A DNA stretch of 64,000 nucleotides, from NCBI GenBank assembly GCA_964593255.1, contig CAZQGX010000011.1, positions 99 through 64,098 of the forward strand. Direction: 5' to 3'. This document shows positions 1 through 62,537 of this stretch, one piece after another. The notes under the pieces were generated by a model. It ran no database searches. It was given only the letters and a program-made list of their open reading frames with translations, and had not been told where the DNA came from. This DNA is from an uncultured Flavobacteriaceae bacterium (GTDB lineage Bacteria > Bacteroidota > Bacteroidia > Flavobacteriales > Flavobacteriaceae). Position numbers and translations under genes: made by a program. Numbering within the stretch: position 1 is the stretch's first letter; the number at the start of each line of letters is the position of its first letter.

Positions 1-1
1 A

Positions 2-193
2 GTAAGTGGATTATTGTTTGAATGGCTAAAAAAAGTAGCCGTTGCAAACAAAGTGAAAGGTGTAAATATTATTCACAGAGTAAAACGCTTTTTCTATCAA
101 TACATTAGCGTATGCGCTAAAATTGTAAAACATGCCAGGCTACAAAGCATCGTCATATTTAATCACGCAGATTATAAAATCCTACAAACATAG
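2..193 (+). CDS. DDE transposase, C-terminal fragment (IS1380/IS4-like); 5' part lies outside the window
   Basis: The frame ending at TAG 191-193 reads ...NIIHRVKRFFYQYISVCAKIVKHARLQSIVIFNHADYKILQT. A basic C-terminal helix of this kind (AKIVKHAR + hydrophobic strand) is typical of IS1380/IS4-type transposases, from memory only. Confidence 0.45.
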   Translation, partial: VSGLLFEWLKKVAVANKVKGVNIIHRVKRFFYQYISVCAKIVKHARLQSIVIFNHADYKILQT

Positions 194-860
194 TTCAATT
201 GATTTATTGGTTTAAGAAGTACCCCATTGATTTGGGTAAGGGATTTTGTGTCAAATAACCACTAAAATACTAACTTTCAGAGCATTTTTGTAAAAATGTA
301 TGGCTCTGATGGTAGGTAAAAAGTTTTGAGATTATTAAAATTATAGCTTGCGATTATTGGGTTACCACAAAAAAATAATTGCAGTTAACCCGAGAAATTC
401 ATTAAAATGCAAAAAACATGAGTGTAAAGTGTCGTATTTAAGTGCTTAGAAACAAATATTTTACTTTTTAAAAACACCAAGATTTGAGCAATAAAAATAC
501 ACTATTAATTACATAGATAACCTATTTATTTTCTGTAAGGCTGGCGTCATTCAGATGGCAAGAACTTTATTTGGGCTTAATTACGTAACTTGGGAATCTG
601 CTTATAAATGTTAGACTTATTTAAGGCTACCGTTAGGATTTGTTATAAGTCAAAAGGGAAATATTCCATCTAAACAATCTAGAGATAGAATACCTAGGTT
701 ATAAGTTGGGGTAGATTAGTCCGTAGTAGTTATGAAGGTTCTGTGATGAAACTGCAGCAAAGGGATTAAGTGGAATAGTTGCATTTTTAGGAATCAACTT
801 GCGAAAGTGAGGAGGAATTTTTTTGAATGAAAGAAAAACTATTTTAGATTTGTACAACAA

Positions 861-934
861 GAGCCGTGTGAGGGGAGTCTTTCAAGCACGGTTGTGAGAG
901 AAGGTTAGGGGGGAACTCCCTTTGCCTACTCGAT
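861..934 (+). ncRNA. Group II intron domain V / domain VI-like RNA (3' end of an ORF-less or degenerate intron)
   Basis: 861-894 GAGCCGUGUGAGGGGAGUCUUUCAAGCACGGUUG is 34 nt. It has the AGC triad paired A-U/G-U/C-G, a U9-G26 wobble, a 2-nt bulge at positions 24-25, a 5-bp upper helix and a tetraloop, the same layout as yeast ai5gamma D5. 898-931 folds as a stem with bulged A928 in CCUACU, 6 nt before an AU at 933-934. Confidence 0.55.
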
Positions 935-980
935 TACATAACCATTACAAACCAGCGAAAACAAAAACGATCACAAATTA

Positions 981-1850
981 ATGAACAGCATTTGGAACAG
1001 AATAAAAGCTAAAATTAACTATGTTTTCAATCCTAAAAAGGAAGAAGAGGAAAAAACTTATTTGGACGAATTACTCAATAATTTAAAAGAATCTCTAATA
1101 AATAATAGAACTTTAAAATTCCAAATTAAATCAGCAAAAAGGAATGGGTTTGTTGTTAAAGTAGGTGGAATGTTTGCATTTATATCATACAATTATATGC
1201 CGTGGGAGTATAAGTCAATTCAAAATTGGCGTGGCGTTTCAAAGCATTTAATAAACCAAGTGTTTTATTGCAAAATTCATAGTATTGATGAAAACACAAT
1301 ACCTATAAAAATTTTGATCAATGCTGAAAATCACAGATTTCAAAAAAAAACCTTGACTGAAAATGAACGATACAAAGGGATTGTAATTCACAAATCAAAA
1401 TATGGCCTTTTTGTAGATATAGGGTATCACTATAATTGGGATTTTGGAAGCTTTGTAGGATTAATCTATAAGTCCACCTACCTAAATGATGATAAGTTAT
1501 TATCAGCAGTTGTAGGGGATATTGTGGAATCACACTATTTTGGAGTAAAAAAAAATGGGGAAATTATCCTGGGCAACAAATATTTTCAAAAAGAATGGTT
1601 GACTGGAGAGCTAGAGAATTATGTCGGGACTAATAGAATGGCAATGGTAATGACGGACGAAACAGGAAAAAGAGGTTATTTTATTGATGGTAAATTTAGA
1701 ACCGTAATTCACTTAAACAAAGAAAGGTTTCCTAATAGAAACAAGTTAAAAAAAGATCTCAACAACTTAAAATTGTACAGCGAATTTGAATGTAAGATAT
1801 TAAGGATAAGTAAAAGTGATAACTTTGTATCTGAACCAGTAGGTATTTGA
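981..1850 (+). CDS. Hypothetical protein with repeated S1/OB-like RNA-binding motifs
   Basis: 289-aa ORF. Segments such as GFVVKVGGMFAFISYNYMP and YKGIVIHKSKYGLFVDIG...GLIYKS resemble the S1 signature G.V..V..fGaFV....GL.h.s. No closer family recognised. Confidence 0.5.
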   Translation: MNSIWNRIKAKINYVFNPKKEEEEKTYLDELLNNLKESLINNRTLKFQIKSAKRNGFVVKVGGMFAFISYNYMPWEYKSIQNWRGVSKHLINQVFYCKIHSIDENTIPIKILINAENHRFQKKTLTENERYKGIVIHKSKYGLFVDIGYHYNWDFGSFVGLIYKSTYLNDDKLLSAVVGDIVESHYFGVKKNGEIILGNKYFQKEWLTGELENYVGTNRMAMVMTDETGKRGYFIDGKFRTVIHLNKERFPNRNKLKKDLNNLKLYSEFECKILRISKSDNFVSEPVGI

Positions 1851-2364: not shown

Positions 2365-3453
2365 TTAACTTTTCATTACTTTTTCTTGATGTACAATAGA
2401 TTCTTGGTGTATGGCCTTAAAGACTTTAAGAATAAATTCTTCACTTAAATCTTGCTCTTTTCCTTGCAAGATCATTTTACCTAGTATCTCGTTCCATCTT
2501 TTAGACTGTAAAACAGCTACATTGCGTTCTTTTTTTAGACCTCCTATGGCATCTGCCGTTTTCATTCTTTTGCCTAGCGATTCAATAATAGAATTATCGA
2601 TAATATCTATTTGTGAGCGCAGCATGCCCAGTTTTGACTGGTATCCTTCTTCATCGTCTTGCTCTTTTCTAATGCGCAAGTCTTTGAAAATTTGTAACAG
2701 GGTGGCAGGGGTTACTTGCTGTGCAGCATCACTCCAGGCGTTATCTGGGTCATAATGTGACTCGATCATCAACCCGTCAAAATTCAGGTCTAGTGCAGTT
2801 TGTGACACCTCAAATATCATGTCTCTATTTCCTGTAATGTGCGACGGGTCACAAATTAGGGGCATATCTGGATATTTAGTTTGAAAATCTACCGCTATTT
2901 GCCATTCTGGATTGTTGCGGTATTTTGACTTGCTATAGGTAGAAAACCCCCTGTGTATCACGCCTAGATTTTTAATATTTGCAGTGTATAAACGTTCTAC
3001 TGCGCCTATCCACAATGCTAGATCTGGATTTACCGGGTTTTTTACTAAAACTATTTTATCAGTTCCCTTAAGGGCATCGGCTATTTCTTGTACGATAAAA
3101 GGACTTACTGTAGAGCGTGCCCCTATCCATAATAAGTCTATATCGTGTTCTAGTGCTAGTTCTACATGGGCTCTATTGGCTACCTCGGTTGCGGTAAGTA
3201 GGCCTGTTTCTGCTTTGGCTTTTTGTAACCATTTAAGCCCTATGGCACCCACCCCTTCAAAATTTCCTGGGCGGGTTCTAGGTTTCCAGATGCCTGCTCT
3301 TAAATAAGTGACATCATTATCTTTTAACTCATGTGCGATTTTTAGTACTTGCTCCTCCGTCTCTGCGCTGCATGGTCCAGCGATAACGATGGGGTGATTT
3401 AATTGATGGGCGTCTAGCCAGTTTCTAAATTCTTTATTATTTTCCATTTTCAA
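2365..3453 (-). CDS. Bifunctional 3-deoxy-7-phosphoheptulonate (DAHP) synthase / chorismate mutase
   Basis: N-terminal KDO8P/DAHPS type I-beta-like region (PIVIAGPCSAE, CDPSH). C-terminal chorismate mutase type II-like helical domain (LRSQIDIIDNSIIESLGKRM). Confidence 0.85.
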   Translation of the reverse strand: MKMENNKEFRNWLDAHQLNHPIVIAGPCSAETEEQVLKIAHELKDNDVTYLRAGIWKPRTRPGNFEGVGAIGLKWLQKAKAETGLLTATEVANRAHVELALEHDIDLLWIGARSTVSPFIVQEIADALKGTDKIVLVKNPVNPDLALWIGAVERLYTANIKNLGVIHRGFSTYSKSKYRNNPEWQIAVDFQTKYPDMPLICDPSHITGNRDMIFEVSQTALDLNFDGLMIESHYDPDNAWSDAAQQVTPATLLQIFKDLRIRKEQDDEEGYQSKLGMLRSQIDIIDNSIIESLGKRMKTADAIGGLKKERNVAVLQSKRWNEILGKMILQGKEQDLSEEFILKVFKAIHQESIVHQEKVMKS

Positions 3454-4297
3454 TTCCTTTCAGTATCGTTTTTATTCTATTGGTTTGTTCCATATCTTTA
3501 AATATGGCGTGGTGATCGTTGTTTTTTACGCTTTCGCGAAAGCGAGATAAATTTTCAATATATGCATCTAAACCCGCTAGCACGTATTTTTTATTTTGTG
3601 CAAAAATAGGGGTCCACATGGCTGGCGAGCTTTTTGCAAGGCGCACGGTACTTTCAAAACCACTACCAGCGAGATCAAAAATATCGCGCTCGTTTTGCTC
3701 TTCTTCTATAACAGTTTTACCCAGCATAAAACTAGAAATGTGGGATAAGTGTGATACATAGGCAATGTGCTTATCATGTGCTGCTGCGGTCATGTATCGC
3801 AATCGCATCCCTAGTTGTGAAAATAGATTTGCCGCAATATCATGCAAGGTAGTAGCCGTTTTGTCTACCTCGCAAATAATTATGGTTTTCTTTACAAATA
3901 AATTACTAATCGCCGCATCTGGTCCTGAAAATTCGGTTCCCGCAATAGGGTGTGCGGCAAGAAACTGCGCGCGATGTGGATGATGGGTTACAGCATTACA
4001 AATAGCTTCTTTAGTAGAGCCTACATCTATAACCAGTGTGTTTTTTGCAACCATATCTAAAACTTGTGGCAGTATTTCTAGGGTGGCATCTACTGGTATA
4101 GAAATAATAACCAGGCAGGCACAGGCAATATCTTGTAATTGCGCCACCTGATCTATAATGCCGTTTTCTTTTGCTTTTTGCGCGTGTTGTGCATTATTGT
4201 CTATACCATAAAAGGTAGCGCTAGGGTAGTGCACACGCATGTCCTTGAGTAGCGACCCACCTATTAAACCAGTGCCTATTAAAAAAATATGTTTCAT
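3437..4297 (-). CDS. tyrA: Prephenate dehydrogenase
   Basis: Rossmann start MKHIFLIGTGLIGGSL and the HP.AG motif (AAHPIAGTE). Start trimmed to the internal ATG abutting the stop of the upstream gene. Confidence 0.85.
   Translation of the reverse strand: MKHIFLIGTGLIGGSLLKDMRVHYPSATFYGIDNNAQHAQKAKENGIIDQVAQLQDIACACLVIISIPVDATLEILPQVLDMVAKNTLVIDVGSTKEAICNAVTHHPHRAQFLAAHPIAGTEFSGPDAAISNLFVKKTIIICEVDKTATTLHDIAANLFSQLGMRLRYMTAAAHDKHIAYVSHLSHISSFMLGKTVIEEEQNERDIFDLAGSGFESTVRLAKSSPAMWTPIFAQNKKYVLAGLDAYIENLSRFRESVKNNDHHAIFKDMEQTNRIKTILKGIENGK
3529..3544. repeat. CGCTTTCGCGAAAGCG palindrome, exact, inside tyrA
   Basis: Exact 16-mer, translated as SRFRES in tyrA. Confidence 0.95.
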
Positions 4298-8963: not shown

Positions 8964-8979
8964 CGCTTTCGCGAAAGCG
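8964..8979. repeat. Palindromic element, exact
   Basis: Exact 16-mer, intergenic, upstream of gldA. Confidence 0.95.
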
Positions 8980-12923: not shown

Positions 12924-13002
12924 CAACCGCTTTGAGAGTAGATCTTACGGCAACGTCAGATCGACTGACATACATAATATTCATTATATAATTAATTTTG
13001 GC

Positions 13003-13272
13003 ATGTATTTAGCACCAGAAAAAAAAGCAGAAATTTTCGCAAAGTACGGAAAAGATGCAAACGACACGGGTAACACCGACGCGCAAATCGCATTGTTTAC
13101 CATGCGTATCAATCACTTAACACTTCACTTAAAACAAAATCGTCACGACTACAATACAGAGCGTAGTCTTGTAAAACTTGTAGGTAAAAGACGTTCTCTT
13201 TTAGATTACAAGATGAAAAAAGATATTGTTGCTTACCGTGAATTGATCAAGGATTTAGGTATCAGAAAATAA
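13003..13272 (+). CDS. rpsO: 30S ribosomal protein S15
   Basis: 89 aa. GNTDAQIALFTMRINHLTLHLKQNRHDYNTERSL is the S15 signature region. Confidence 0.95.
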   Translation: MYLAPEKKAEIFAKYGKDANDTGNTDAQIALFTMRINHLTLHLKQNRHDYNTERSLVKLVGKRRSLLDYKMKKDIVAYRELIKDLGIRK

Positions 13273-13461: not shown

Positions 13462-13477
13462 CGCTTTCGCGAAAGCA
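13462..13477. repeat. Palindromic element, 15/16
   Basis: CGCTTTCGCGAAAGCA in the rpsO-pnp intergenic region. Confidence 0.9.
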
Positions 13478-16941: not shown

Positions 16942-17787
16942 CTACCATTTAGACATCCAGCGACCAATTCGTCCCAAGGCACCCGTAGAACCCATTATTG
17001 CGGTCGTTAATCCAGAAGCTGCTACAATTCGCCAATTAATGCCGCCACCGGAACCTAAATAATGCTGATATCCTACAGATAATCCAGCTCCTATGATAGC
17101 ACCGGCAATATCTGCGCAAATCCATGGCGCTAGCTTTTGTTGCTCATTCGCCTCTAAACTATTAGCAGCCCACCATTCTAAGGAATTAATACTAATGTCC
17201 AGAATAATAAAGGAATAGTCAGTCCCCGCATGTGAGGTATTTTGACTTATATCCCATTGTGATTTCAAATCTAAAAGATTTTGATAAACCGCTTGATTTG
17301 AAAGTGAATTTGACAAATTCAACCGTATATCGGCAATTATGGAATTTACTATCAATTGATCTCTTTCACTAATAAGTCCTTCTGTTTTATATAATTCATT
17401 TAACTCCTCTAACTGATAAATACGGTTATTAAGTTCAACACCTTCATTTAAAGCCTTTTTTACGTTTGTAATGTCGTATAAATCAGTGTTTTCAGCTAGA
17501 AATAATTGTGCTGTTTCTAAATCATAAAGTAAGGAAGAATTAGAACTAAAATGTTGGGATTGAAAAGCAGCTAGAGATTGAAGTGCTTGTTCTTCAGAAT
17601 TATACTCTGAGGAATAAGCGAAATTTCTCATGGTATGAGTGAGAAAGTCGTTATGAATCATTCCTAAAGATGTATTTTGGTTGTTAGAACTTTTCACTTG
17701 TGTTAATTCATCTTCTTCACTACAAGAATTAAACACTAAACAAAGTCCAAAAAGGACAAACGACACCAATTTCATTTTTGTTTTCAT
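16942..17787 (-). CDS. Cassette 1 lipoprotein with a glycine-zipper C-terminus
   Basis: Signal and lipobox MKTKMKLVSFVLFGLCLVFNSC. Helical Asn/Leu-rich middle. C-terminus ICADIAGAIIGAGLSVG...GSGGGINWRIVAASGLTTAIMGSTGALGRIG. Confidence 0.7.
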   Translation of the reverse strand: MKTKMKLVSFVLFGLCLVFNSCSEEDELTQVKSSNNQNTSLGMIHNDFLTHTMRNFAYSSEYNSEEQALQSLAAFQSQHFSSNSSLLYDLETAQLFLAENTDLYDITNVKKALNEGVELNNRIYQLEELNELYKTEGLISERDQLIVNSIIADIRLNLSNSLSNQAVYQNLLDLKSQWDISQNTSHAGTDYSFIILDISINSLEWWAANSLEANEQQKLAPWICADIAGAIIGAGLSVGYQHYLGSGGGINWRIVAASGLTTAIMGSTGALGRIGRWMSKW

Positions 17788-17853
17788 GATTTTTATATTT
17801 TAAAAGTTATGATGCAAAAATATTGTAGCTATTTTGTTTTTTATGCGCCAAAT

Positions 17854-17870
17854 TTTACTAATTTAGTAAA
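17854..17870. promoter_or_regulatory. Perfect 17-bp palindrome TTTACTAATTTAGTAAA, candidate XRE operator (cassette 1)
   Basis: Lies in the 114-nt divergent intergenic region. An extra TTACTAA half-site is at 17874-17880. Confidence 0.55.
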
Positions 17871-17901
17871 TTCTTACTAAAAACGCATAAACTTTATACT
17901 T

Positions 17902-18288
17902 ATGATTGCTGCAAAACATCTAAAAGACCTGCGTTTAAAAAATAACTATACCCAAGAACATCTTGCCACAAAGCTAGGTATTTCTCAAAAAACCTATTCA
18001 AATCTTGAAAGTGGTACAGGAAAAATAACCCTGGAGCATTTATTAAAAATTGCAGCGGTTTATGCAATGCCGGTTGTACCCTTAACAGCATTGCTCACAA
18101 ACACGAGCCCAGAGTTCATGACCGCACTTGAAGAAGAAAACAAGGAAAGTACGGCTTACGAATTGTACCATGGTGTAAATGCAAACCTTACCCTAGAGTT
18201 ACTTACATCTTATAAAGCGCAAATAGACCAGCTAACTAAATTGAATGCAGTTTTAGAGGAACGCCTGCGTGTTCTATCCAGAGTGTAG
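17902..18288 (+). CDS. XRE-family helix-turn-helix transcriptional regulator (cassette 1)
   Basis: LKDLRLKNNYTQEHLATKLGISQKTYSNLESG is a canonical Cro/C1-type HTH. C-terminal coiled-coil-like tail. Confidence 0.85.
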   Translation: MIAAKHLKDLRLKNNYTQEHLATKLGISQKTYSNLESGTGKITLEHLLKIAAVYAMPVVPLTALLTNTSPEFMTALEEENKESTAYELYHGVNANLTLELLTSYKAQIDQLTKLNAVLEERLRVLSRV

Positions 18289-18304
18289 CATTGATAATGA
18301 TATT

Positions 18305-18340
18305 AAAATGCTCCTTGAAATTTCATGGGGCATTTTTTTG
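18305..18340 (+). terminator. Terminator after XRE-1, same family as the pnp terminator
   Basis: AAAATGCTCCTTGAAATTTCATGGGGCATTTTTTT. Confidence 0.75.
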
Positions 18341-18352
18341 TTTGTGTAATTT

Positions 18353-18368
18353 CGCTTTTGCGAAAGTT
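18353..18368. repeat. Palindromic element, 13/16, fused to the XRE-1 terminator
   Basis: CGCTTTTGCGAAAGTT. Confidence 0.7.
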
Positions 18369-18404
18369 TGGAAAACCACAATTCATAAGAATGGACTAAG
18401 ATTA

Positions 18405-18566
18405 TTAAATATTCTTACTATATGCGCCCTTTTTAAAGTTGTAGGTTACACCTAAAATATAGAAAATTAAAAACCCTAACCACCAATAAATGTACGGTTC
18501 ATTGTGCATGAAAATTAACAATGCAATGGGATATAAATAGATTCTGTAAGGTATTTTAAAAAGCAT
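18405..18566 (-). CDS. Small membrane protein (orphan immunity candidate)
   Basis: Start trimmed to the internal Met (MLFKIPYRIYLYPIALLIF...). Two hydrophobic segments. Confidence 0.4.
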   Translation of the reverse strand: MLFKIPYRIYLYPIALLIFMHNEPYIYWWLGFLIFYILGVTYNFKKGAYSKNI

Positions 18567-18567
18567 T

Positions 18568-18774
18568 TTAATTATGGTAAAAATGATTATATAGTATCCA
18601 TGTGTTGCGGTAAGCGAAAAACCCACCGAGACCTAATGCAACAAAGACAAGTAATACATAGCCCGCGCCTACTTTTTTGTCTGATAAAATCGCCTTAATT
18701 ATTTTTATAAAACCCACTATACCGTAATAAAGATAGTACAACGCAAGCAGCATTCCTAAAATACGTAAAAACAT
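18568..18774 (-). CDS. Small membrane protein (orphan immunity candidate)
   Basis: MFLRILGMLLALYYLYYGIVGF...GYVLLVFVALGLGGFFAY, two TM segments. An alternative TTG start is at 18783. Confidence 0.45.
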   Translation of the reverse strand: MFLRILGMLLALYYLYYGIVGFIKIIKAILSDKKVGAGYVLLVFVALGLGGFFAYRNTWILYNHFYHN

Positions 18775-18817
18775 AACATTCAATTTACCATAAAGACCAA
18801 ACTAATATCGTATTTGA

Positions 18818-18928
18818 TTAAGTGCTTTTAACAAGCAAAGTCACATCAACAACTTGCTCACTACAAGAATTAAACACTAAACAAAGCCCAAATAACGCAA
18901 TCGGCACTAAACTAAAAACTTTTTTCAT
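18818..18928 (-). pseudogene. Truncated lipoprotein stub sharing the cassette lipobox
   Basis: Hand translation gives MKKVFSLVPIALFGLCLVFNSCSEQVVDVTLLVKST*. The FGLCLVFNSCSE part matches cassettes 1 and 2 at the nucleotide level (CACTACAAGAATTAAACACTAAACAAAG). Confidence 0.55.
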
Positions 18929-19214
18929 GACTTTAAAATTTTAGTTGTTAAAACAAGACAAACCATTTGTCTTGAAAGATACACTTGATTTGCAAATCAT
19001 TATAAAGAAAAAAAAAAGAATCTTCCTAACGTATTCTTCGTATAAAAACACTTTTAACAACTTTTTAACCATTAAACCATTTTTGTTCAATTTTTAAATC
19101 CTTTTAATGTTAATTAAACAAACAAAATACGCACCATGCGCAGTTCCTTAAATTCAGATTGTCTCTGGTAGCATGTTCTGAATGACCCTGCTTGTACGGC
19201 AGGACTAACAACAT

Positions 19215-19250
19215 AAAAGCCCTGTAACTTTTTATTTACGGGGCTTTTTA
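19215..19250. terminator. Bidirectional hairpin terminator
   Basis: AAAAGCCCTGTAA-CTTTTTAT-TTACGGGGCTTTTT, 47 nt downstream of the minus-strand 19297 gene. Confidence 0.65.
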
Positions 19251-19296
19251 CGGCTATTGAAAATCTTAGATTTAAATTCTGAAAAAGAGCTTTCTC

Positions 19297-19503
19297 TTAC
19301 TTGTTTTTTAACAAAGCAAATAATTTGGACATTAAATAGTCAAAAACATAAACGAAAAATAGTATTAAAATAAAACCAATAACCGTGTCAAAAAGTAAAA
19401 AAGTCCAGCTACCACGGTAGTAATTATCCATAAATAAAAGTCGTGCTAGAACTGAAACACTTGTTAAAATAAATGCTGTCCATATTTTATATTTAACTAC
19501 CAT
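19297..19503 (-). CDS. Small 2-TM membrane protein translationally coupled to the cassette 2 lipoprotein (immunity candidate)
   Basis: The ATG at 19503 is 2 nt after the lipoprotein stop (19506-19508). Sequence MVVKYKIWTAFILTSVSVLARLL...VIGFILILFFVYVF. Confidence 0.55.
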   Translation of the reverse strand: MVVKYKIWTAFILTSVSVLARLLFMDNYYRGSWTFLLFDTVIGFILILFFVYVFDYLMSKLFALLKNK

Positions 19504-19505
19504 GA

Positions 19506-20300
19506 TTATGACCAAAATTTACAAGATAGATACGCTCTTAAATATCCCTCAGCAAATCCAGCAAGTCCTCCTATAATAGCACCCCCCAAAGCACCTACAC
19601 CACCTGCTGGCAAAGCTAAAACCCCCAGACTTAAAAAACCTCCTATTGTAAAACCACTTAATCCTCCTACAATAACACCACCAACCATTCCTATGACGCC
19701 ATCTAGAATAGCGGATCGTAAAGCTTCTTTCCTACAATCCTTACCCTTTTGTAAAATTATTTCTTCAGATTTGTCTATTAATGCAAAAATCAGACTATAA
19801 ACTTGCAATTCTGGGTTTGTAAGAACATCAATAAAATATTGATTTTTAAGGTCGATTAACCCCTCTAGGTCATTATCTGATGCAAATTGAAACAGGTTTA
19901 GAGCATATTCCTTTTGTTTTTCACTAAGATGTTCCGCATTTAATATATCATCTTCGTTTAGAATGTGGTTCTGAGACGCTACATTATTGACTAAGATCTG
20001 TTCAATATCTGTGTATTCGGTAAAGTTATTTAATATGTTCTCATTTAAAGTGTAATAATTAGAAACTTCATGATTAACATCAACATTTGGTTCGGTCAAT
20101 TGGTCAGAATAAACCTCTAAGCTTGTTAGCATTTGTTCTGCAATAATGGAAGCCTCGAAGTCAGATAAATAGTTAAATTGAAAATTTTTAGTTGTGGTCG
20201 ACAAAGTATTTTCAGTGTTTAAATTATCCTCACTACAAGAATTAAAAACTAAGCAAAGTCCAAAAAGGATAAACGGCATTAATTTCATTTTTGTTTTCAT
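19506..20300 (-). CDS. Cassette 2 lipoprotein with a glycine-zipper C-terminus
   Basis: Start trimmed to MKTKMKLMPFILFGLCLVFNSC, which reproduces the 114-nt intergenic spacing of cassette 1. C-terminus GVIGMVGGVIVGGLSGFTIGGFLSLGVLALPAGGVGALGGAIIGGLAGFAEG. Confidence 0.7.
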   Translation of the reverse strand: MKTKMKLMPFILFGLCLVFNSCSEDNLNTENTLSTTTKNFQFNYLSDFEASIIAEQMLTSLEVYSDQLTEPNVDVNHEVSNYYTLNENILNNFTEYTDIEQILVNNVASQNHILNEDDILNAEHLSEKQKEYALNLFQFASDNDLEGLIDLKNQYFIDVLTNPELQVYSLIFALIDKSEEIILQKGKDCRKEALRSAILDGVIGMVGGVIVGGLSGFTIGGFLSLGVLALPAGGVGALGGAIIGGLAGFAEGYLRAYLSCKFWS

Positions 20301-20366
20301 AATATATGTTGTTTTAAAATTATGATGCAAAGATGTTATCGCTATTTTGTATTTCATGCGCTAAAT

Positions 20367-20383
20367 TTTACTAATTTAGTAAA
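20367..20383. promoter_or_regulatory. Perfect 17-bp palindrome TTTACTAATTTAGTAAA (cassette 2)
   Basis: Same sequence and same position as in cassette 1. Confidence 0.55.
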
Positions 20384-20414
20384 TGCTTACTAAAAACGCA
20401 TAAACTTTATACCT

Positions 20415-20801
20415 ATGATTGCTGCAAAACATTTAAAAGACCTGCGTTTAAAAAATAACTATACCCAAGAACATCTTGCCACAAAGCAAGGTATTTCTCA
20501 AAAAACATATTCAAATCTTGAAAGTGGTACAGCAAAAATAACGCTGGAGCATTTATTAAAAATTGCAGCGGTTTATAAAATGCCGGTTGTACCATTAACA
20601 GCACTACTTACAAACACCAGCCCAGAGTTCATGACCGCACTTGAAGAAGAAAACAAGGAAAGTACGCCTTACGAATTGTACCATGGTGTAAATGCAGACC
20701 TTACTCTAGAGTTACTTACATCTTACAAAGCGCAAATAGACCAGCTAACTAAACTGAATGCAGTTTTGGAAGAGCGCCTACGGGTTCTATCCAAAGTGTA
20801 G
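20415..20801 (+). CDS. XRE-family HTH regulator (cassette 2)
   Basis: 128 aa, differing from the 17902 copy at only 6 positions by eye. Confidence 0.85.
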   Translation: MIAAKHLKDLRLKNNYTQEHLATKQGISQKTYSNLESGTAKITLEHLLKIAAVYKMPVVPLTALLTNTSPEFMTALEEENKESTPYELYHGVNADLTLELLTSYKAQIDQLTKLNAVLEERLRVLSKV

Positions 20802-20817
20802 CATTGTTAATGATATT

Positions 20818-20853
20818 AAAATGCCCCTTGATATTTCAAGGGGTGTTTTTTTT
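20818..20853 (+). terminator. Terminator after XRE-2, same family
   Basis: AAAATGCCCCTTGATATTTCAAGGGGTGTTTTTTTT. Confidence 0.7.
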
Positions 20854-20866
20854 GTTGGTGTTATTT

Positions 20867-20882
20867 CGCTTTCACTAAAAAG
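20867..20882. repeat. Half-decayed palindromic element fused to the XRE-2 terminator
   Basis: CGCTTTCACTAAAAAG. The left arm is kept and the right arm is degraded. Confidence 0.5.
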
Positions 20883-20901
20883 GGTTGTATGATAACGACC
20901 A

Positions 20902-21216
20902 TTAATAAAACAATGCCAGCAAAATCTCTTTATACGATTTCCCATTGCCCAAAATGACTACATCATAAAATTTAACGCAATTTCGAATAAAGAGATAGGT
21001 AACAAAAATGATGGCGCCAATTGTAAGAATCAAGTGACCATTGTAAACTTCCCCGTTATCTACAAATTTGGACCTTGCCACTTTCAGGCCGATATAACAG
21101 GAGCGAAGAATCCTTATGCAAATAAATTGCAAGAACAAGAACAAAAATATATCTATAACAACAGACATCAGCAAAAAATTAATGTGGTTAACGCATACAC
21201 TATGCAAATTCTGCAA
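20902..21216 (-). CDS. Hypothetical membrane protein
   Basis: 104 aa with two or three hydrophobic segments. No recognised family. Confidence 0.35.
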   Translation of the reverse strand: MQNLHSVCVNHINFLLMSVVIDIFLFLFLQFICIRILRSCYIGLKVARSKFVDNGEVYNGHLILTIGAIIFVTYLFIRNCVKFYDVVILGNGKSYKEILLALFY

Positions 21217-21224
21217 CCTTTATC

Positions 21225-21503
21225 TCAACACCAATGAGTCCTAGACCCGCTCTCACTGCCGAAGCTCTTTCTTTCGATTTCTAATAGAGTAAGTCTAGCT
21301 TCAACACGTGATAAGGCCCGTCCAGTAAAGGCTCTTTGAAGATCCCTAGCTCCCAAAACCGCGCCTGCACAACTATAAACTTCAAAACTACTAATATCTT
21401 TGGCAACGCTTGTTTTTGAAGAAACCAGTCTCGCCGCGATAATCATTTGGTAAACAGCAGCAATCATTACTTTGGTATAATCAATTTCTTCTTTGTATTG
21501 CAC
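21225..21503 (-). CDS. Hypothetical protein
   Basis: 92-aa ORF with a GTG start, in a locally GC-richer patch. No recognised family. Confidence 0.25.
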   Translation of the reverse strand: MQYKEEIDYTKVMIAAVYQMIIAARLVSSKTSVAKDISSFEVYSCAGAVLGARDLQRAFTGRALSRVEARLTLLEIERKSFGSESGSRTHWC

Positions 21504-21698
21504 ACTATCGAATGATTATACTTTTTGAATATTAAGTTATAATGCTTAAAAGCATATGCATTACTTGACATAGAAGAATGGTAATAAGTACGATTAATTC
21601 TCAAAAGATTTACAAATATTTAAATCCTTCAGACATTACATTAAACATAAAAAACATGTTGCATACAATTTCTCAAATTTAAAGATGTTTTTGAAATG

Positions 21699-22001
21699 CT
21701 AGACGTTTTTATGTTTAGGTGGAAACGCCGCTAGCACTAAATTTACTATTGGCACTAAAAAAAGCCACTTATTAAATTTGGTTTCATTTAGTCTTCTCAT
21801 ACCTAATGTCAAAAACGGTACAAGAAAAAATATTCTAGTTACCATGGCAACATTATTACCAAAAAGATCGAGACCTTTAGCAAATCCAATTAGCGGACTG
21901 ACAATAAAAAAATAAAACAATACGAATATCCAGAATTCTTTTACACTGGCTTTTTTAGTAATATTGAATACGTTGCTAAAGGGTTGAATTATATATTTCA
22001 T
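21699..22001 (-). CDS. DUF805-family membrane protein
   Basis: KEFWIFVLFYFFIV...RRLNETKFNKWLFLVPIVNLVL matches the DUF805 pattern (RRLHD..SGWW.LL..iP). Confidence 0.6.
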   Translation of the reverse strand: MKYIIQPFSNVFNITKKASVKEFWIFVLFYFFIVSPLIGFAKGLDLFGNNVAMVTRIFFLVPFLTLGMRRLNETKFNKWLFLVPIVNLVLAAFPPKHKNV

Positions 22002-22016
22002 AGCTAGTTGTTTTAT

Positions 22017-22591
22017 TTAGTCATTTGGAGCACGATCATCTAGACAGTTCCGTGAGGTGCAAGATGCAGCTTCTTCGGCAATACAGGCAAAACCAGCAAA
22101 AGAACAAACAATTTTTTCAAAGGTGTTCATTCCTTCATAAATATTGTATTGAACGCATTGCCTGACACCTTCAACCGAACATTCATCTCTTCTAGGATAA
22201 TCATTTATTTTAGGTAGTAATAAATATAAGTTTTGTCTATTTATTATAAAGGACTCGTCTTCTATTCCGTTGAAATAAAATGTAATTTTACCATCAATTT
22301 TATTTTTGTTTTTATTTAAAAAATCTTCAAACAATTGGACATCCCCTGTTGATAAAATATCGTCAGGAATCTTTATGTTTGTTTCAAATTTACTACTTAG
22401 AATTAAATTAGGAATCTCTTCATTAATTGTATTTAATAATACTTTTGAGTTATATTTTAATTGAATTAAATCAACAGGTTCAAATTTATATGTGTAAACT
22501 TTTTCTTGTGGTGAAATATCTTCTTGTTCGCAACTTGCCGTAATTAGAGCAAGTGCTGCCAATATATCAATAATTTCATTTTTGTTTTCAT
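22017..22591 (-). pseudogene. Cassette 3 lipoprotein (Cys-rich mature part) with a frameshifted signal peptide
   Basis: The ATG at 22591 gives MKTKMKLLIYWQHLL*. The long ORF (LAALALITASCEQ...) is in the -1 frame from position 30 of that reading. A 1-nt gain would restore MKTKMKLLI.LAALALITASC. Confidence 0.5.
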
Positions 22592-22706
22592 AATTTACGT
22601 TATTTTAAAAGTTATGATGCAAAAATATTGTAGCTATTTTGTTTTTAATGCGCCAAATTTTACTAATTTAATAAGTACTTACTAAAAACGCATAAACTTT
22701 ATACCT

Positions 22707-22724
22707 ATGATTGCTGCTACTTAA
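22707..22724 (+). pseudogene. Remnant of the third XRE gene (MIAAT*)
   Basis: The intergenic region 22592-22706 aligns with cassettes 1 and 2. Homology stops about 12 nt into the XRE CDS. Confidence 0.6.
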
Positions 22725-26970: not shown

Positions 26971-26986
26971 CGCTTTCGCAAAAGCG
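26971..26986. repeat. Palindromic element, 15/16
   Basis: TCTCGCTTTCGCAAAAGCGAGA, intergenic. Confidence 0.9.
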
Positions 26987-43027: not shown

Positions 43028-43043
43028 CGCTTTCGCGAAAGCG
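43028..43043. repeat. Palindromic element, exact, between nqrC and nqrD
   Basis: Exact 16-mer in the 46-nt nqrC-nqrD spacer. Confidence 0.95.
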
Positions 43044-49308: not shown

Positions 49309-49324
49309 CGCTTTCGCGAAAGCG
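49309..49324. repeat. Palindromic element, exact
   Basis: TCTCGCTTTCGCGAAAGCGAGA, intergenic. Confidence 0.95.
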
Positions 49325-62521: not shown

Positions 62522-62537
62522 CGCTTTCGCGAAAGCG
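62522..62537. repeat. Palindromic element, exact
   Basis: Exact 16-mer, 12 nt after the acyl-CoA dehydrogenase stop. Confidence 0.95.

What the first reader, a model, noticed from the sequence alone, without database searches (positions are those of the whole stretch)
236..940. Group II intron catalytic domain V/VI signature with no intron-encoded protein
The 34-nt sequence at 861-894 (GAGCCGUGUGAGGGGAGUCUUUCAAGCACGGUUG) can be threaded position by position onto the canonical 34-nt domain V. It has the AGC triad with A-U/G-U/C-G pairing, an 8-bp lower helix ending in a U-G wobble, a 2-nt bulge at positions 24-25, a 5-bp upper helix and a tetraloop. It shares GAGCCGU...ACGGUU with the yeast ai5gamma D5 sequence as I remember it.

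Three nucleotides later, a stem (898-931) presents a bulged A928 in CCUACU. That A is 6 nt upstream of an AU dinucleotide at 933-934, which is the usual branch point to 3' splice site geometry.

The 600-700 nt upstream contains no ORF of 60 aa or more, so there is no RT/maturase. I could not find a convincing GUGYG 5' end. The tetraloop is GAGU, not GNRA.

The candidate explanations are an ORF-less intron mobilised in trans, a 5'-degraded relic, or a domesticated ribozyme-like RNA.
Basis: partly seen in the sequence, partly recalled or inferred. Interest (0 to 1): 0.65.

Follow-up and report, generated by a model that had tools for sequence, protein, structure and literature searches.

The report
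Dead fragment of a group II intron
The domain V/VI signature is real, but it belongs to a broken leftover of a common mobile group II intron of marine Flavobacteria that has lost its first ~280 bases and its reverse-transcriptase gene, so it is an ordinary piece of genomic debris and not a new ribozyme.

Summary
The DV/DVI signature is confirmed. Rfam Intron_gpII hits window 859-934 (+) at 46.2 bits (gathering score 40).

A metagenome scan with a DV-flank pattern returned 77 closely related loci. Full-length family members are about 1900-1960 nt. They start with GUGUG and end with CCUACUCGAU. In domain IV they carry a 420-aa RT/maturase with no endonuclease domain. They match Rfam group-II-D1D4-2 at 102-112 bits and Intron_gpII at about 65 bits.

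Only window 501-837 (intron positions 283-619) and about 844-934 (the last ~100 nt) are homologous to this family. The first ~282 nt are absent from all 64 kb of the window. That missing part holds the 5' splice site, the D1D4-2 part of domain I and the putative EBS1. The ~1.2-kb IEP ORF is also deleted, and its start codon reads AGG.

The remnant carries uncompensated changes:
- The DV loop is GAGU where the family has GAGA.
- The DV closing pair is broken.
- Three of 12 DVI pairs and three DIV stem pairs are broken.

Positions 236-500 are not intron sequence. They hold an IS1380-family end and other repeats. An 86%-identical orthologue of the downstream gene has the empty homing site at the same distance from its ATG.

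Verdict: an ordinary 5'-truncated, ORF-deleted, decaying intron relic. Interest is low.

The parts
1..193 (+). 3' end of an IS1380-family transposase ORF, cut by the window start. It is not part of the intron.
   Evidence: There is a weak NCBIfam transpos_IS1380 match to the C-terminus. The region sits at 3-4x depth in the source metagenome. An 80%-identical degenerate copy lies at 1893-2100.
194..362 (+). Non-coding right end of the IS-like repeat. Block 317-362 is present about 13x in the source metagenome and is the probable IS terminus.
   Evidence: Contigs match up to 362/363 and then continue into at least 3 different flanks. Depth there is about 100 against a unique depth of about 7.6.
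363..500 (.). Spacer of unknown origin with no similarity to the intron family. It contains another repeat block, 384-445/506, that has paralogues elsewhere in the metagenome.
   Evidence: No blastn or nhmmer hit to any intron copy. Loose ends occur at 384/385 (before) and 506 (behind). The unique-depth contig 332-544 spans the 501 junction, so the join is not an assembly artefact.
501..595 (+). 3'-terminal remnant of intron domain I. Homology to the family starts at 501, which is intron position 283 of the L164 copy.
   Evidence: blastn gives 501-837 = L164 intron 283-619 at 86% identity. Other copies in the same metagenome continue upstream of 501 with intron sequence ...GGAGTGAAAAGTAATAGTAGCGAT. 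The domain assignment comes from the RNAalifold consensus of 12 full-length members.
598..708 (+). Domain II remnant.
   Evidence: Family consensus structure. In the window, 17/20 predicted pairs are standard, against 18-20/20 in members.
716..769 (+). Domain III remnant.
   Evidence: Family consensus structure. 15/16 pairs are kept.
770..858 (+). Domain IV stub. It holds the IEP ribosome-binding site, a mutated start codon (ATG>AGG, G814), about 10 IEP codons, and the deletion junction at about 837-843 that removed about 1.23 kb of RT/maturase ORF. The 5' strand of the DIV stem reads GUGGAAU instead of GUUGUAC.
   Evidence: Alignments with 18 members. 5' homology ends at 837 and 3' homology starts at 828/844. 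tblastn of the family IEP finds nothing in the window.
861..894 (+). Domain V, with the AGC triad at 862-864. Two private mutations are present. A878U turns the family GAGA (GNRA) loop into GAGU, and C894G breaks the closing pair.
   Evidence: RF00029 alignment. The family consensus at 878 and 894 is invariant in 49/49 equal-length members.
898..931 (+). Domain VI, with the unpaired branch-point A928. Stem pairs are broken by changes at 902 and 904.
   Evidence: RF00029 alignment with non-canonical pairs marked. 9/12 pairs are kept, against 11-12/12 in all members and in L149. The changes at 897, 902, 904, 911 and 913 are not shared by the family.
932..934 (+). Last three nucleotides of the intron (GAU), giving the 3' boundary at 934.
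   Evidence: The family ends ...CUACUCGAU and the flanks then diverge. Metagenome loose ends lie behind 934/938.
935..980 (+). 3' exon half of the family's homing site (TACATAACCATTAC..., a decayed version of the consensus TACnAACCGTTR) and the 5' UTR of the downstream gene.
   Evidence: 3' flanks of about 70 copies. The empty site CATA|TACAAACACGTTGCC in L008/L009 lies 47 nt from the ATG, against 46 nt here.
981..1850 (+). S1-domain-like protein gene (289 aa). It is a downstream host gene and not part of the intron.
   Evidence: Pfam S1 match at 28.5 bits. There are 35 homologue clusters, all in Bacteroidota where named. None of the homologous loci (L002-L013) has a DV/DVI upstream.

Best explanation
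Window 501-934 is a dead relic of a mobile, endonuclease-less group II intron. The intron belongs to a family that is abundant in marine, saline and microbial-mat Flavobacteriaceae.

Inferred history: the ancestor retrohomed, in the sense orientation, into the family's usual homing site about 46 nt upstream of the start codon of an S1-domain-like gene. Two events then disabled this copy.
1. The ~1.23-kb RT/maturase ORF in domain IV was deleted. About 10 codons remain.
2. The first ~282 nt were lost. They held the 5' splice site GUGUG, most of domain I and the EBS1 loop. Unrelated repetitive DNA and an IS1380-family end now abut position 501.

What remains is the end of DI, then DII, DIII, a DIV stub, DV and DVI. 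This remnant is accumulating uncompensated substitutions. It cannot splice or move, and at most it is transcribed passively as part of the leader of the downstream gene.

Shown: homology and its limits, the absence of the 5' part and of the IEP from the window, the mutations, the empty orthologous site, and the multi-copy status of relatives in the same sample.

Inferred: the order and mechanism of the two deletions, and the lack of function.
For: (1) RF00029 hit at 859-934, 46.2 bits.

(2) 77 related loci were found. Full-length members are 1900-1963 nt. Their 420-aa IEP scores 407.8 bits against TIGR04416 group_II_RT_mat (cutoff 300) and matches Pfam RVT_1 and GIIM. It has no En domain, and its best solved relatives are the 7uim-series group II intron RT/maturase and GsI-IIC RT. 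Close IEP relatives are annotated in Psychroflexus torquis ATCC 700755 (90% identity), Formosa, Aquimarina and Flavivirga.

(3) Full-length members score 102-112 bits on RF01999 group-II-D1D4-2 at intron positions ~54-172, and 65-66 bits on RF00029. The window has no D1D4 hit at E <= 10, and its RF00029 score is 20 bits lower.

(4) blastn of a full-length intron against the whole window finds only 501-837 (intron 283-619, 86%) and 828-934 (89%). tblastn of the IEP finds nothing.

(5) The putative EBS1 (UAUGAU, intron ~251-256) lies in the missing part. It covaries with the 5' exon in L167 and L195.

(6) Decay. Six of 57 near-invariant DV/DVI columns are changed, against 0-1 in 48 of 49 members. 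Thirteen of 140 invariant columns are changed in 501-837, against a leave-one-out median of 2. Pairs kept are DII 17/20, DIII 15/16, DIV 15/18, DV 14/15 and DVI 9/12. Members, and the independent control L149, keep nearly all of theirs.

(7) Empty site in L008/L009, the 86%-identical orthologue, at the same distance from the ATG.

(8) In the source metagenome the intron parts are multi-copy, with more abundant intact-looking variants that include IEP 3' ends and a copy with an intact 5' end. The junction contigs 332-544 and 715-868 are at single-copy depth.

Against: Nothing observed contradicts this explanation, but several limits apply.
- The window starts only 500 nt upstream of the truncation point. 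A displaced 5' piece beyond the IS element cannot be excluded from the window alone. One search showed no contig ending at intron position ~282, but contigs show presence and not absence.
- No RNA data exist for this sample, so lack of splicing is inferred and not measured.
- The consensus structure used for the pair counts was derived from the members themselves, which favours them. L149 serves as an outside control.
- DV and DVI remain recognisable, at 14/15 and 9/12 pairs, so the inactivation is recent or incomplete at the level of these two hairpins.
Confidence: 0.9

Rival explanations
1. The intron is interrupted and not truncated. An IS1380-family element plus other repeats inserted into domain I, and the 5' ~282 nt with the 5' exon lie upstream of the window start. 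It would still be inactive in cis, unless it trans-splices.
For: An IS1380-family end lies at 1-362, directly upstream. Bacterial introns are often surrounded by other mobile DNA (PMC4424553). The window gives no view beyond position 1.
Against: The IS terminus is at ~362 and not at 500. The intervening 138 nt are unrelated to the intron and contain a further repeat with its own paralogues, so a single insertion does not explain the junction. Laying the metagenome contigs on the 5' part of a full-length copy showed no piece that stops at intron position ~282 and runs into foreign sequence. The only junction found at that point is the window's own.
Confidence: 0.06
2. A complete, functional ORF-less group II intron spans ~236-934, has an unusually divergent domain I, and is spliced and mobilised in trans by IEPs of co-resident full-length copies.
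For: IEP-encoding relatives co-occur in the same metagenome. A genuine complete ORF-less family member exists (L149, 682 nt). ORF-less bacterial introns normally live beside related IEP-encoding copies (PMC4424553).
Against: There is no GUGYG and no D1D4 hit even at E <= 10. Region 236-500 has no similarity to any of the 77 relatives and is made of blocks repeated independently elsewhere. The fold of 205-940 is not better than shuffles (z = -1.7). The family's EBS1 and D1D4-2 region are absent. DV lost its GNRA loop and closing pair, and the DIV and DVI stems are broken.
Confidence: 0.02
3. The DV/DVI remnant has been co-opted, for example as a structured 5' leader or promoter-bearing segment that regulates the S1-domain-like RNA-binding protein gene 46 nt downstream.
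For: It is in the same orientation as the gene and immediately upstream of it. Two stable hairpins are retained.
Against: The family routinely inserts 20-50 nt upstream of unrelated genes, so the position is explained by homing. None of 10 homologous S1-like loci has it. The closest orthologue has the empty site. The substitutions hit family-invariant and paired positions without compensation.
Confidence: 0.02

Closest known systems
Group II intron family of marine Flavobacteriaceae. Its IEP is annotated as 'group II intron reverse transcriptase/maturase' in Psychroflexus torquis ATCC 700755, Formosa sp. PL04, Aquimarina muelleri and Flavivirga sp.
   Same: Window 501-837 and 844-934 are 86-91% identical to the corresponding RNA parts of full-length members. 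The 3' end is the same (CUACUCGAU), and so is the homing-site 3' half.
   Different: The window copy lacks intron positions 1-282 and the whole IEP. It carries private mutations at family-invariant positions.
Truncated or inactivated bacterial group II intron copies, described as the majority of copies in bacterial genomes in the review PMC4424553
   Same: It is a fragmentary copy next to other mobile DNA (an IS1380-family end and other repeats), outside a housekeeping gene, in a genome or community that also holds intact copies.
   Different: Nothing essential differs. This copy happens to combine a 5' truncation with an internal ORF deletion.
Bacterial ORF-less group II introns served in trans by IEPs of related copies. 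The review PMC4424553 mentions a cyanobacterial example.
   Same: The IEP ORF is deleted from domain IV while DV and DVI are retained, and related IEP-encoding copies exist in the same sample. The family member L149 is a true example of this kind.
   Different: Functional ORF-less introns keep the 5' splice site, the whole of domain I with the EBS sites, and an intact GNRA loop on DV. The window copy has none of these.
Class C (IIC) group II introns, based on the best solved relatives of the family's IEP (the 7uim-series group II intron RT/maturase and GsI-IIC RT)
   Same: The IEP is about 420 aa, of RT plus X/thumb type, with no endonuclease domain.
   Different: The insertion sites share a two-exon sequence motif (..CGCAACnAAnCAUA|UACnAACCGUUR..) and are not simply downstream of an intrinsic terminator. 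The ORF-less RNA is about 680 nt, which from my own recall is longer than typical IIC ribozymes. The class was not determined here.

Membership tests
Group II intron (functional self-splicing ribozyme or retroelement) | Domain V: a ~34-nt hairpin with the catalytic AGC triad and a 2-nt bulge | tested here: met
   RF00029 scores 46.2 bits against a gathering score of 40 at 859-934. However, the closing pair is broken (C894G) and the GNRA loop is mutated to GAGU.
Group II intron (functional self-splicing ribozyme or retroelement) | Domain VI with a bulged branch-point adenosine 7-8 nt from the 3' splice site | tested here: met
   A928 is unpaired in the CM alignment, and the intron ends at 934. 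Only 9/12 stem pairs remain.
Group II intron (functional self-splicing ribozyme or retroelement) | 5' splice-site consensus GUGYG at the intron start | tested here: not met
   Family members start with GUGUGCC. The homologous part of the window starts at intron position 283. The 5' 282 nt match nothing in the 64-kb window on either strand.
Group II intron (functional self-splicing ribozyme or retroelement) | Complete domain I with exon-binding site(s) | tested here: not met
   RF01999 D1D4-2 scores 102-112 bits in relatives at intron ~54-172 but gives no hit in the window at E <= 10. The putative EBS1 at intron ~251-256 lies in the missing part.
Group II intron (functional self-splicing ribozyme or retroelement) | Intron-encoded RT/maturase in domain IV (for the mobile retroelement form) | tested here: not met
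   No ORF of 60 aa or more lies in 194-980. tblastn of the family IEP against the window finds nothing. About 10 codons remain, with the start codon mutated.
Group II intron (functional self-splicing ribozyme or retroelement) | Splicing (ligated exons, lariat) in RNA | not testable with these tools
   Only DNA runs of the source sample hold the sequence. No RNA run of this community was found.
Flavobacteriaceae En-minus group II intron family (by descent) | Nucleotide homology to full-length members over the RNA domains | tested here: met
   86% identity over 337 nt and 89% over 107-109 nt to L164. Similar values hold for more than 20 other members.
Flavobacteriaceae En-minus group II intron family (by descent) | Insertion at the family's homing site | tested here: inconclusive
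   The 3' flank TACATAACCATTAC resembles the consensus TACnAACCGTTR, and the empty orthologous site fits the consensus. The 5' exon half is not present next to the truncated copy.

The most novel reading that the evidence does not exclude
The relic descends from a non-autonomous, ORF-less sublineage of this intron family that spreads by borrowing the RT/maturase of co-resident full-length copies. The window copy and the complete 682-nt ORF-less intron L149 have similar-looking deletion junctions: IEP codon ~10 is joined to ..UUAGAUUUGUAC just before DV. Yet they are only ~66% identical to each other. This means either an old, diversifying ORF-less lineage or recurrent deletion at the same short direct repeat (UGAAAyAAA) flanking the ORF.
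Probability: 0.25. Interest if true: 0.3.

Novelty: already known. Interest (0 to 1): 0.1.

Why it matters
It matters little beyond correct annotation. The finding is a textbook case of bacterial group II intron decay: a fragment lying among other mobile-element debris.

Three points are useful in practice:
- A DV/DVI covariance hit alone should not be read as an ORF-less or novel ribozyme.
- The boundaries (501-934) and the homing site of this Flavobacteriaceae intron family are now defined well enough to annotate other copies.
- The family contains at least one genuinely complete ORF-less member (L149). ORF-less introns are a rare form in bacteria, so anyone studying trans-mobilisation might want to look at it.

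Tried and rejected
(1) The single genome-contig scan used a degenerate DV pattern. The scan gave no close relatives.

(2) The permissive Rfam scan of 1-2600 (E <= 10) found no D1-D4 model and only chance-level hits such as snoRNA and Tombus_5.

(3) MFE folding of 205-940 gave z = -1.7, which is uninformative, and no recognisable six-domain layout.

(4) I tested whether the S1-domain-like gene is functionally tied to the intron. It is not. Ten homologous loci lack any DV/DVI.

(5) I tested whether the 5' part or the IEP lies elsewhere in the window. It does not.

(6) I searched the window for further unoccupied homing sites with a fuzzy regex and an nhmmer profile. Nothing significant turned up.

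(7) I searched for a complementary 5' intron piece ending at position ~282 in the source metagenome. None was seen.

(8) A literature search for this family in Psychroflexus returned no papers.

(9) I did not assign an intron class (A-F, CL, ML). The best PDB relatives of the IEP include GsI-IIC RT, but the homing-site behaviour does not look like class C. No class-specific reference set was available.

Full report
**1. Checking the observation**

Rfam release 15 at gathering thresholds gives one intron hit in the 64-kb window. It is RF00029 (Intron_gpII, the DV+DVI model) at 859-934 on the + strand. The score is 46.2 bits against a gathering score of 40, the model is matched end to end, and E = 6.7e-06.

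The alignment places DV at 861-894, with the AGC triad at 862-864, the usual bulge and the loop GAGU. It places DVI at 898-931 with A928 unpaired.

A permissive scan of 1-2600 (E <= 10) adds no D1-D4 model hit. No ORF of 60 aa or more lies between 194 and 980 on either strand.

**2. Surroundings**

- Positions 1-193 encode the C-terminus of an IS1380-family transposase (weak NCBIfam match).
- About 80% identity links 1-205 to a degenerate second copy at 1893-2100.
- ORF 981-1850 is an S1-domain-like protein. It belongs to a small family of 35 clusters, all in Bacteroidota where named.
- Ten homologous loci were fetched: Paucihalobacter, Tenuifilum and several metagenomic contigs. None has a DV/DVI upstream, so the gene and the intron signature are not a unit.
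- In the closest orthologue (L008/L009, 86% amino-acid identity) the upstream region is different. Similarity to the window resumes just downstream of position 934.

**3. The source sample**

The stretch occurs in four DNA runs of one microbial-mat metagenome. I laid Logan's contigs of those runs on 1-2400.

- Positions 948-2190 sit at unique depth (7.6, 18.8 and 15.4 in the first three runs).
- Positions 1-940 are shredded into short contigs at 2-14x that depth.
- More abundant sequence variants exist at 878, 894, 897, 902 and 904.
- Contigs leave the window sequence after 934/938, after 362, before 501, after 506 and before 825/844.

The DV/DVI region is therefore one copy of a multi-copy element. 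The loose-end sequence before 844 (TTGGAACTTTCCTGAAATAAATGTTATTGC) later proved to be the 3' end of the family's IEP ORF. Contigs 332-544 and 715-868 are at about single-copy depth and reproduce the window's junctions exactly. The junctions are therefore real and not assembly chimeras.

**4. Relatives**

A metagenome scan with the family-specific 21-mer ACAAGAGCCGTGTGAGGGGAG returned 77 loci. Their DV/DVI are near-identical to the window's, they all end in CUACUCGAU, and their flanks then diverge.

Copies with enough upstream sequence carry a ~420-434-codon open frame that ends 12 nt before the pattern. The encoded 420-aa protein scores 407.8 bits on TIGR04416, group II intron RT/maturase (cutoff 300). 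It matches Pfam RVT_1 and GIIM and has no endonuclease domain. Its best solved relatives are the 7uim-series group II intron RT/maturase and GsI-IIC RT. Proteins 76-90% identical to it are annotated in Psychroflexus torquis ATCC 700755, Formosa, Aquimarina and Flavivirga. This is a known, widespread Flavobacteriaceae intron family.

Comparing full-length copies with one another puts the 5' end at GUGUGCC and the total length at 1900-1963 nt. These copies score 102-112 bits on RF01999 (group-II-D1D4-2) at intron positions ~54-172, and 65-66 bits on RF00029.

**5. What the window holds**

blastn of a full-length member (L164) against the entire window finds two pieces only:
- 501-837, equal to intron positions 283-619, at 86% identity;
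- 828-934, the last ~105 nt, at 89% identity.

tblastn of the IEP finds nothing. Two things are therefore missing.

(a) Intron positions 1-282 are absent. They hold the 5' splice site, the D1D4-2 part of domain I and the loop UAUGAU at ~251-256. I take that loop to be EBS1, because it is complementary to the 5' exon ends (..UCAUA) and changes together with them in L167 and L195. The EBS1 assignment is an inference.

(b) About 1.23 kb of IEP ORF is absent. The stub keeps the ribosome-binding site and ~10 codons. The start codon is mutated (GAGGATGAA > GAGGAGGAA, G814). The junction lies at ~837-843.

An RNAalifold consensus of 12 full-length members gives the canonical six-domain layout. On that map the window retains the following:

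| Domain | Window coordinates |
|---|---|
| Last ~95 nt of DI | 501-595 |
| DII | 598-708 |
| DIII | 716-769 |
| DIV stub | 770-858 |
| DV | 861-894 |
| DVI | 898-931 |

**6. Decay**

Among 49 equal-length DV/DVI sequences, 57 columns outside the search pattern are at least 95% conserved. The window differs at 6 of these. By comparison, 42 members differ at none, 6 members at one and 1 member at three.

The six window changes include:
- C894G, which breaks the DV closing pair;
- changes at 902 and 904 in the DVI stem.

In 501-837 the window differs at 13 of 140 invariant columns. The leave-one-out values for members are 0-8, with a median of 2. Three of the 13 changes (772, 774, 776) turn the DIV stem strand GUUGUAC into GUGGAAU while its partner GUACAAC is unchanged.

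| Domain | Window pairs kept | Members and L149 |
|---|---|---|
| DII | 17/20 | nearly all kept |
| DIII | 15/16 | nearly all kept |
| DIV | 15/18 | nearly all kept |
| DV | 14/15 | 15/15 |
| DVI | 9/12 | 11-12/12 |

L149 was not used to derive the structure, so it is an outside control. The 20-bit deficit of the window's RF00029 score relative to intact copies (46 against 65-66) says the same thing.

**7. The 5' side**

Positions 236-500 are not intron. They have no similarity to any relative.

They are a patchwork:
- an IS-like repeat whose ~13x-copy terminal block ends at 362, with at least three different continuations in the metagenome;
- about 20 nt at near-unique depth;
- a further repeat (384-445/506) with its own paralogues.

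I laid the metagenome contigs on the 5' part of L164. They show one copy with an intact 5' end behind a canonical 5' exon. No piece stops at intron position ~282 and runs into foreign DNA. I therefore favour true loss of the 5' part over displacement by an insertion. Because contigs cannot prove absence, I leave about 6% for the 'interrupted' rival.

How the truncation arose is not determinable here. It could be abortive reverse transcription, or a later deletion or rearrangement near the IS.

**8. Homing site**

The flanks of the family share a two-exon motif..CGCAACnAAnCAUA | UACnAACCGUUR.., that usually lies 20-50 nt upstream of a start codon.

The window's 3' flank (TACATAACCATTAC) is a decayed version of this motif. 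L008/L009 carries the unoccupied site (..ACGCAACAAACCATA|TACAAACACGTTGCC) 47 nt from its ATG, against 46 nt between position 934 and the ATG here. This amounts to an empty-site comparison. It shows that the intron inserted into the leader of the S1-like gene. It also explains the intron's position without invoking any functional link.

**9. Comparison with what is known, and verdict**

[quoted passage not shown] It also states that ORF-less bacterial introns are rare and occur beside related IEP-encoding copies (PMC4424553).

The window element is an instance of the first statement. It meets the DV and DVI criteria and is a member of the Flavobacteriaceae family by descent. It fails the tests for a 5' splice site, a complete domain I with EBS, and an IEP. 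It should be annotated as a group II intron fragment and not as an intron.

The only mildly unusual points are in the relatives:
- a complete 682-nt ORF-less member (L149) whose deletion junction resembles the window's;
- a second partial-deletion form (L187);
- tandem copies (L142);
- sublineages with palindromic insertions in or after DV.

Novelty: already known. Interest: low.

Noticed in passing
L149 (Ga0209414_1004361), extracted coordinates 2642-3323 of the 3.5-kb upstream extract; Rfam hits at L149:2698-2819 and 3227-3323: This is a complete 682-nt ORF-less member of the intron family. It starts with GUGUG behind a canonical homing site, scores 93.8 bits on D1D4-2, and keeps DV 15/15 and DVI 12/12 pairs. 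Its IEP-deletion junction looks like the window's, although the two are only ~66% identical. ORF-less bacterial group II introns are described as rare.
   Followed up: partly
L142 (tandem copies) and L187 (intron of 1261 nt): In L142 a second GUGUGCC intron start follows directly after the CUACUCGA end of the first copy, so the introns are in tandem. L187 carries a different, partial deletion of the IEP ORF.
   Followed up: no
L160, L163, L181, L185, L202, L203, L209; and L148, L149, L159, L177, L196, L205: In seven loci the 3' strand of DV (..CACGGUUC) is replaced by a palindrome (CGUAUCCCGGUCGACCGGGA). In six other loci a GC-rich hairpin is inserted in or just after the 3' end of DV, before DVI. 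These look like small palindromic insertions that spread with intron sublineages.
   Followed up: no
Flanks of L134-L210; empty site in L008 (about 47 nt upstream of the gene start at 177) and in L009: The family homes into a conserved two-exon motif (..GCTAAAnnACGCAACnAAnCATA|TACnAACCGTTR..) that sits 20-50 nt upstream of the start codons of many unrelated genes. A second group of sites has a conserved TTCGG-N13-CCGAA hairpin upstream. The nature of this recurrent leader or intergenic motif is unknown.
   Followed up: partly
window 1-362 and 1893-2100: The S1-like gene and the intron relic are bracketed by two same-orientation copies of an IS1380-family right end. The downstream copy is degenerate, with stop codons in the transposase frame. 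Block 317-362 is present about 13x in the source metagenome.
   Followed up: partly
window 981-1850: This 289-aa protein has a weak S1 RNA-binding domain match. It belongs to a small family of 35 clusters, all in Bacteroidota where named. The family is found in varied genomic contexts, for example after znuB in Tenuifilum.
   Followed up: partly
window 12948-13059: Rfam S15 ribosomal protein leader (RF00114), 41.4 bits against a gathering score of 39.5.
   Followed up: no
window 3529-3544, 8964-8979, 13462-13477, 26971-26986, 43028-43043, 49309-49324, 62522-62537 and others: The 16-nt palindrome CGCTTTCGCGAAAGCG recurs about ten times in the window, mostly between genes. It may be a terminator or a REP-like element.
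   Followed up: no
window 17709-22717: Repeat blocks of about 100-300 nt recur three times, at start-to-start spacings of 2513 and 2292 nt, with 82-96% identity between copies.
   Followed up: no
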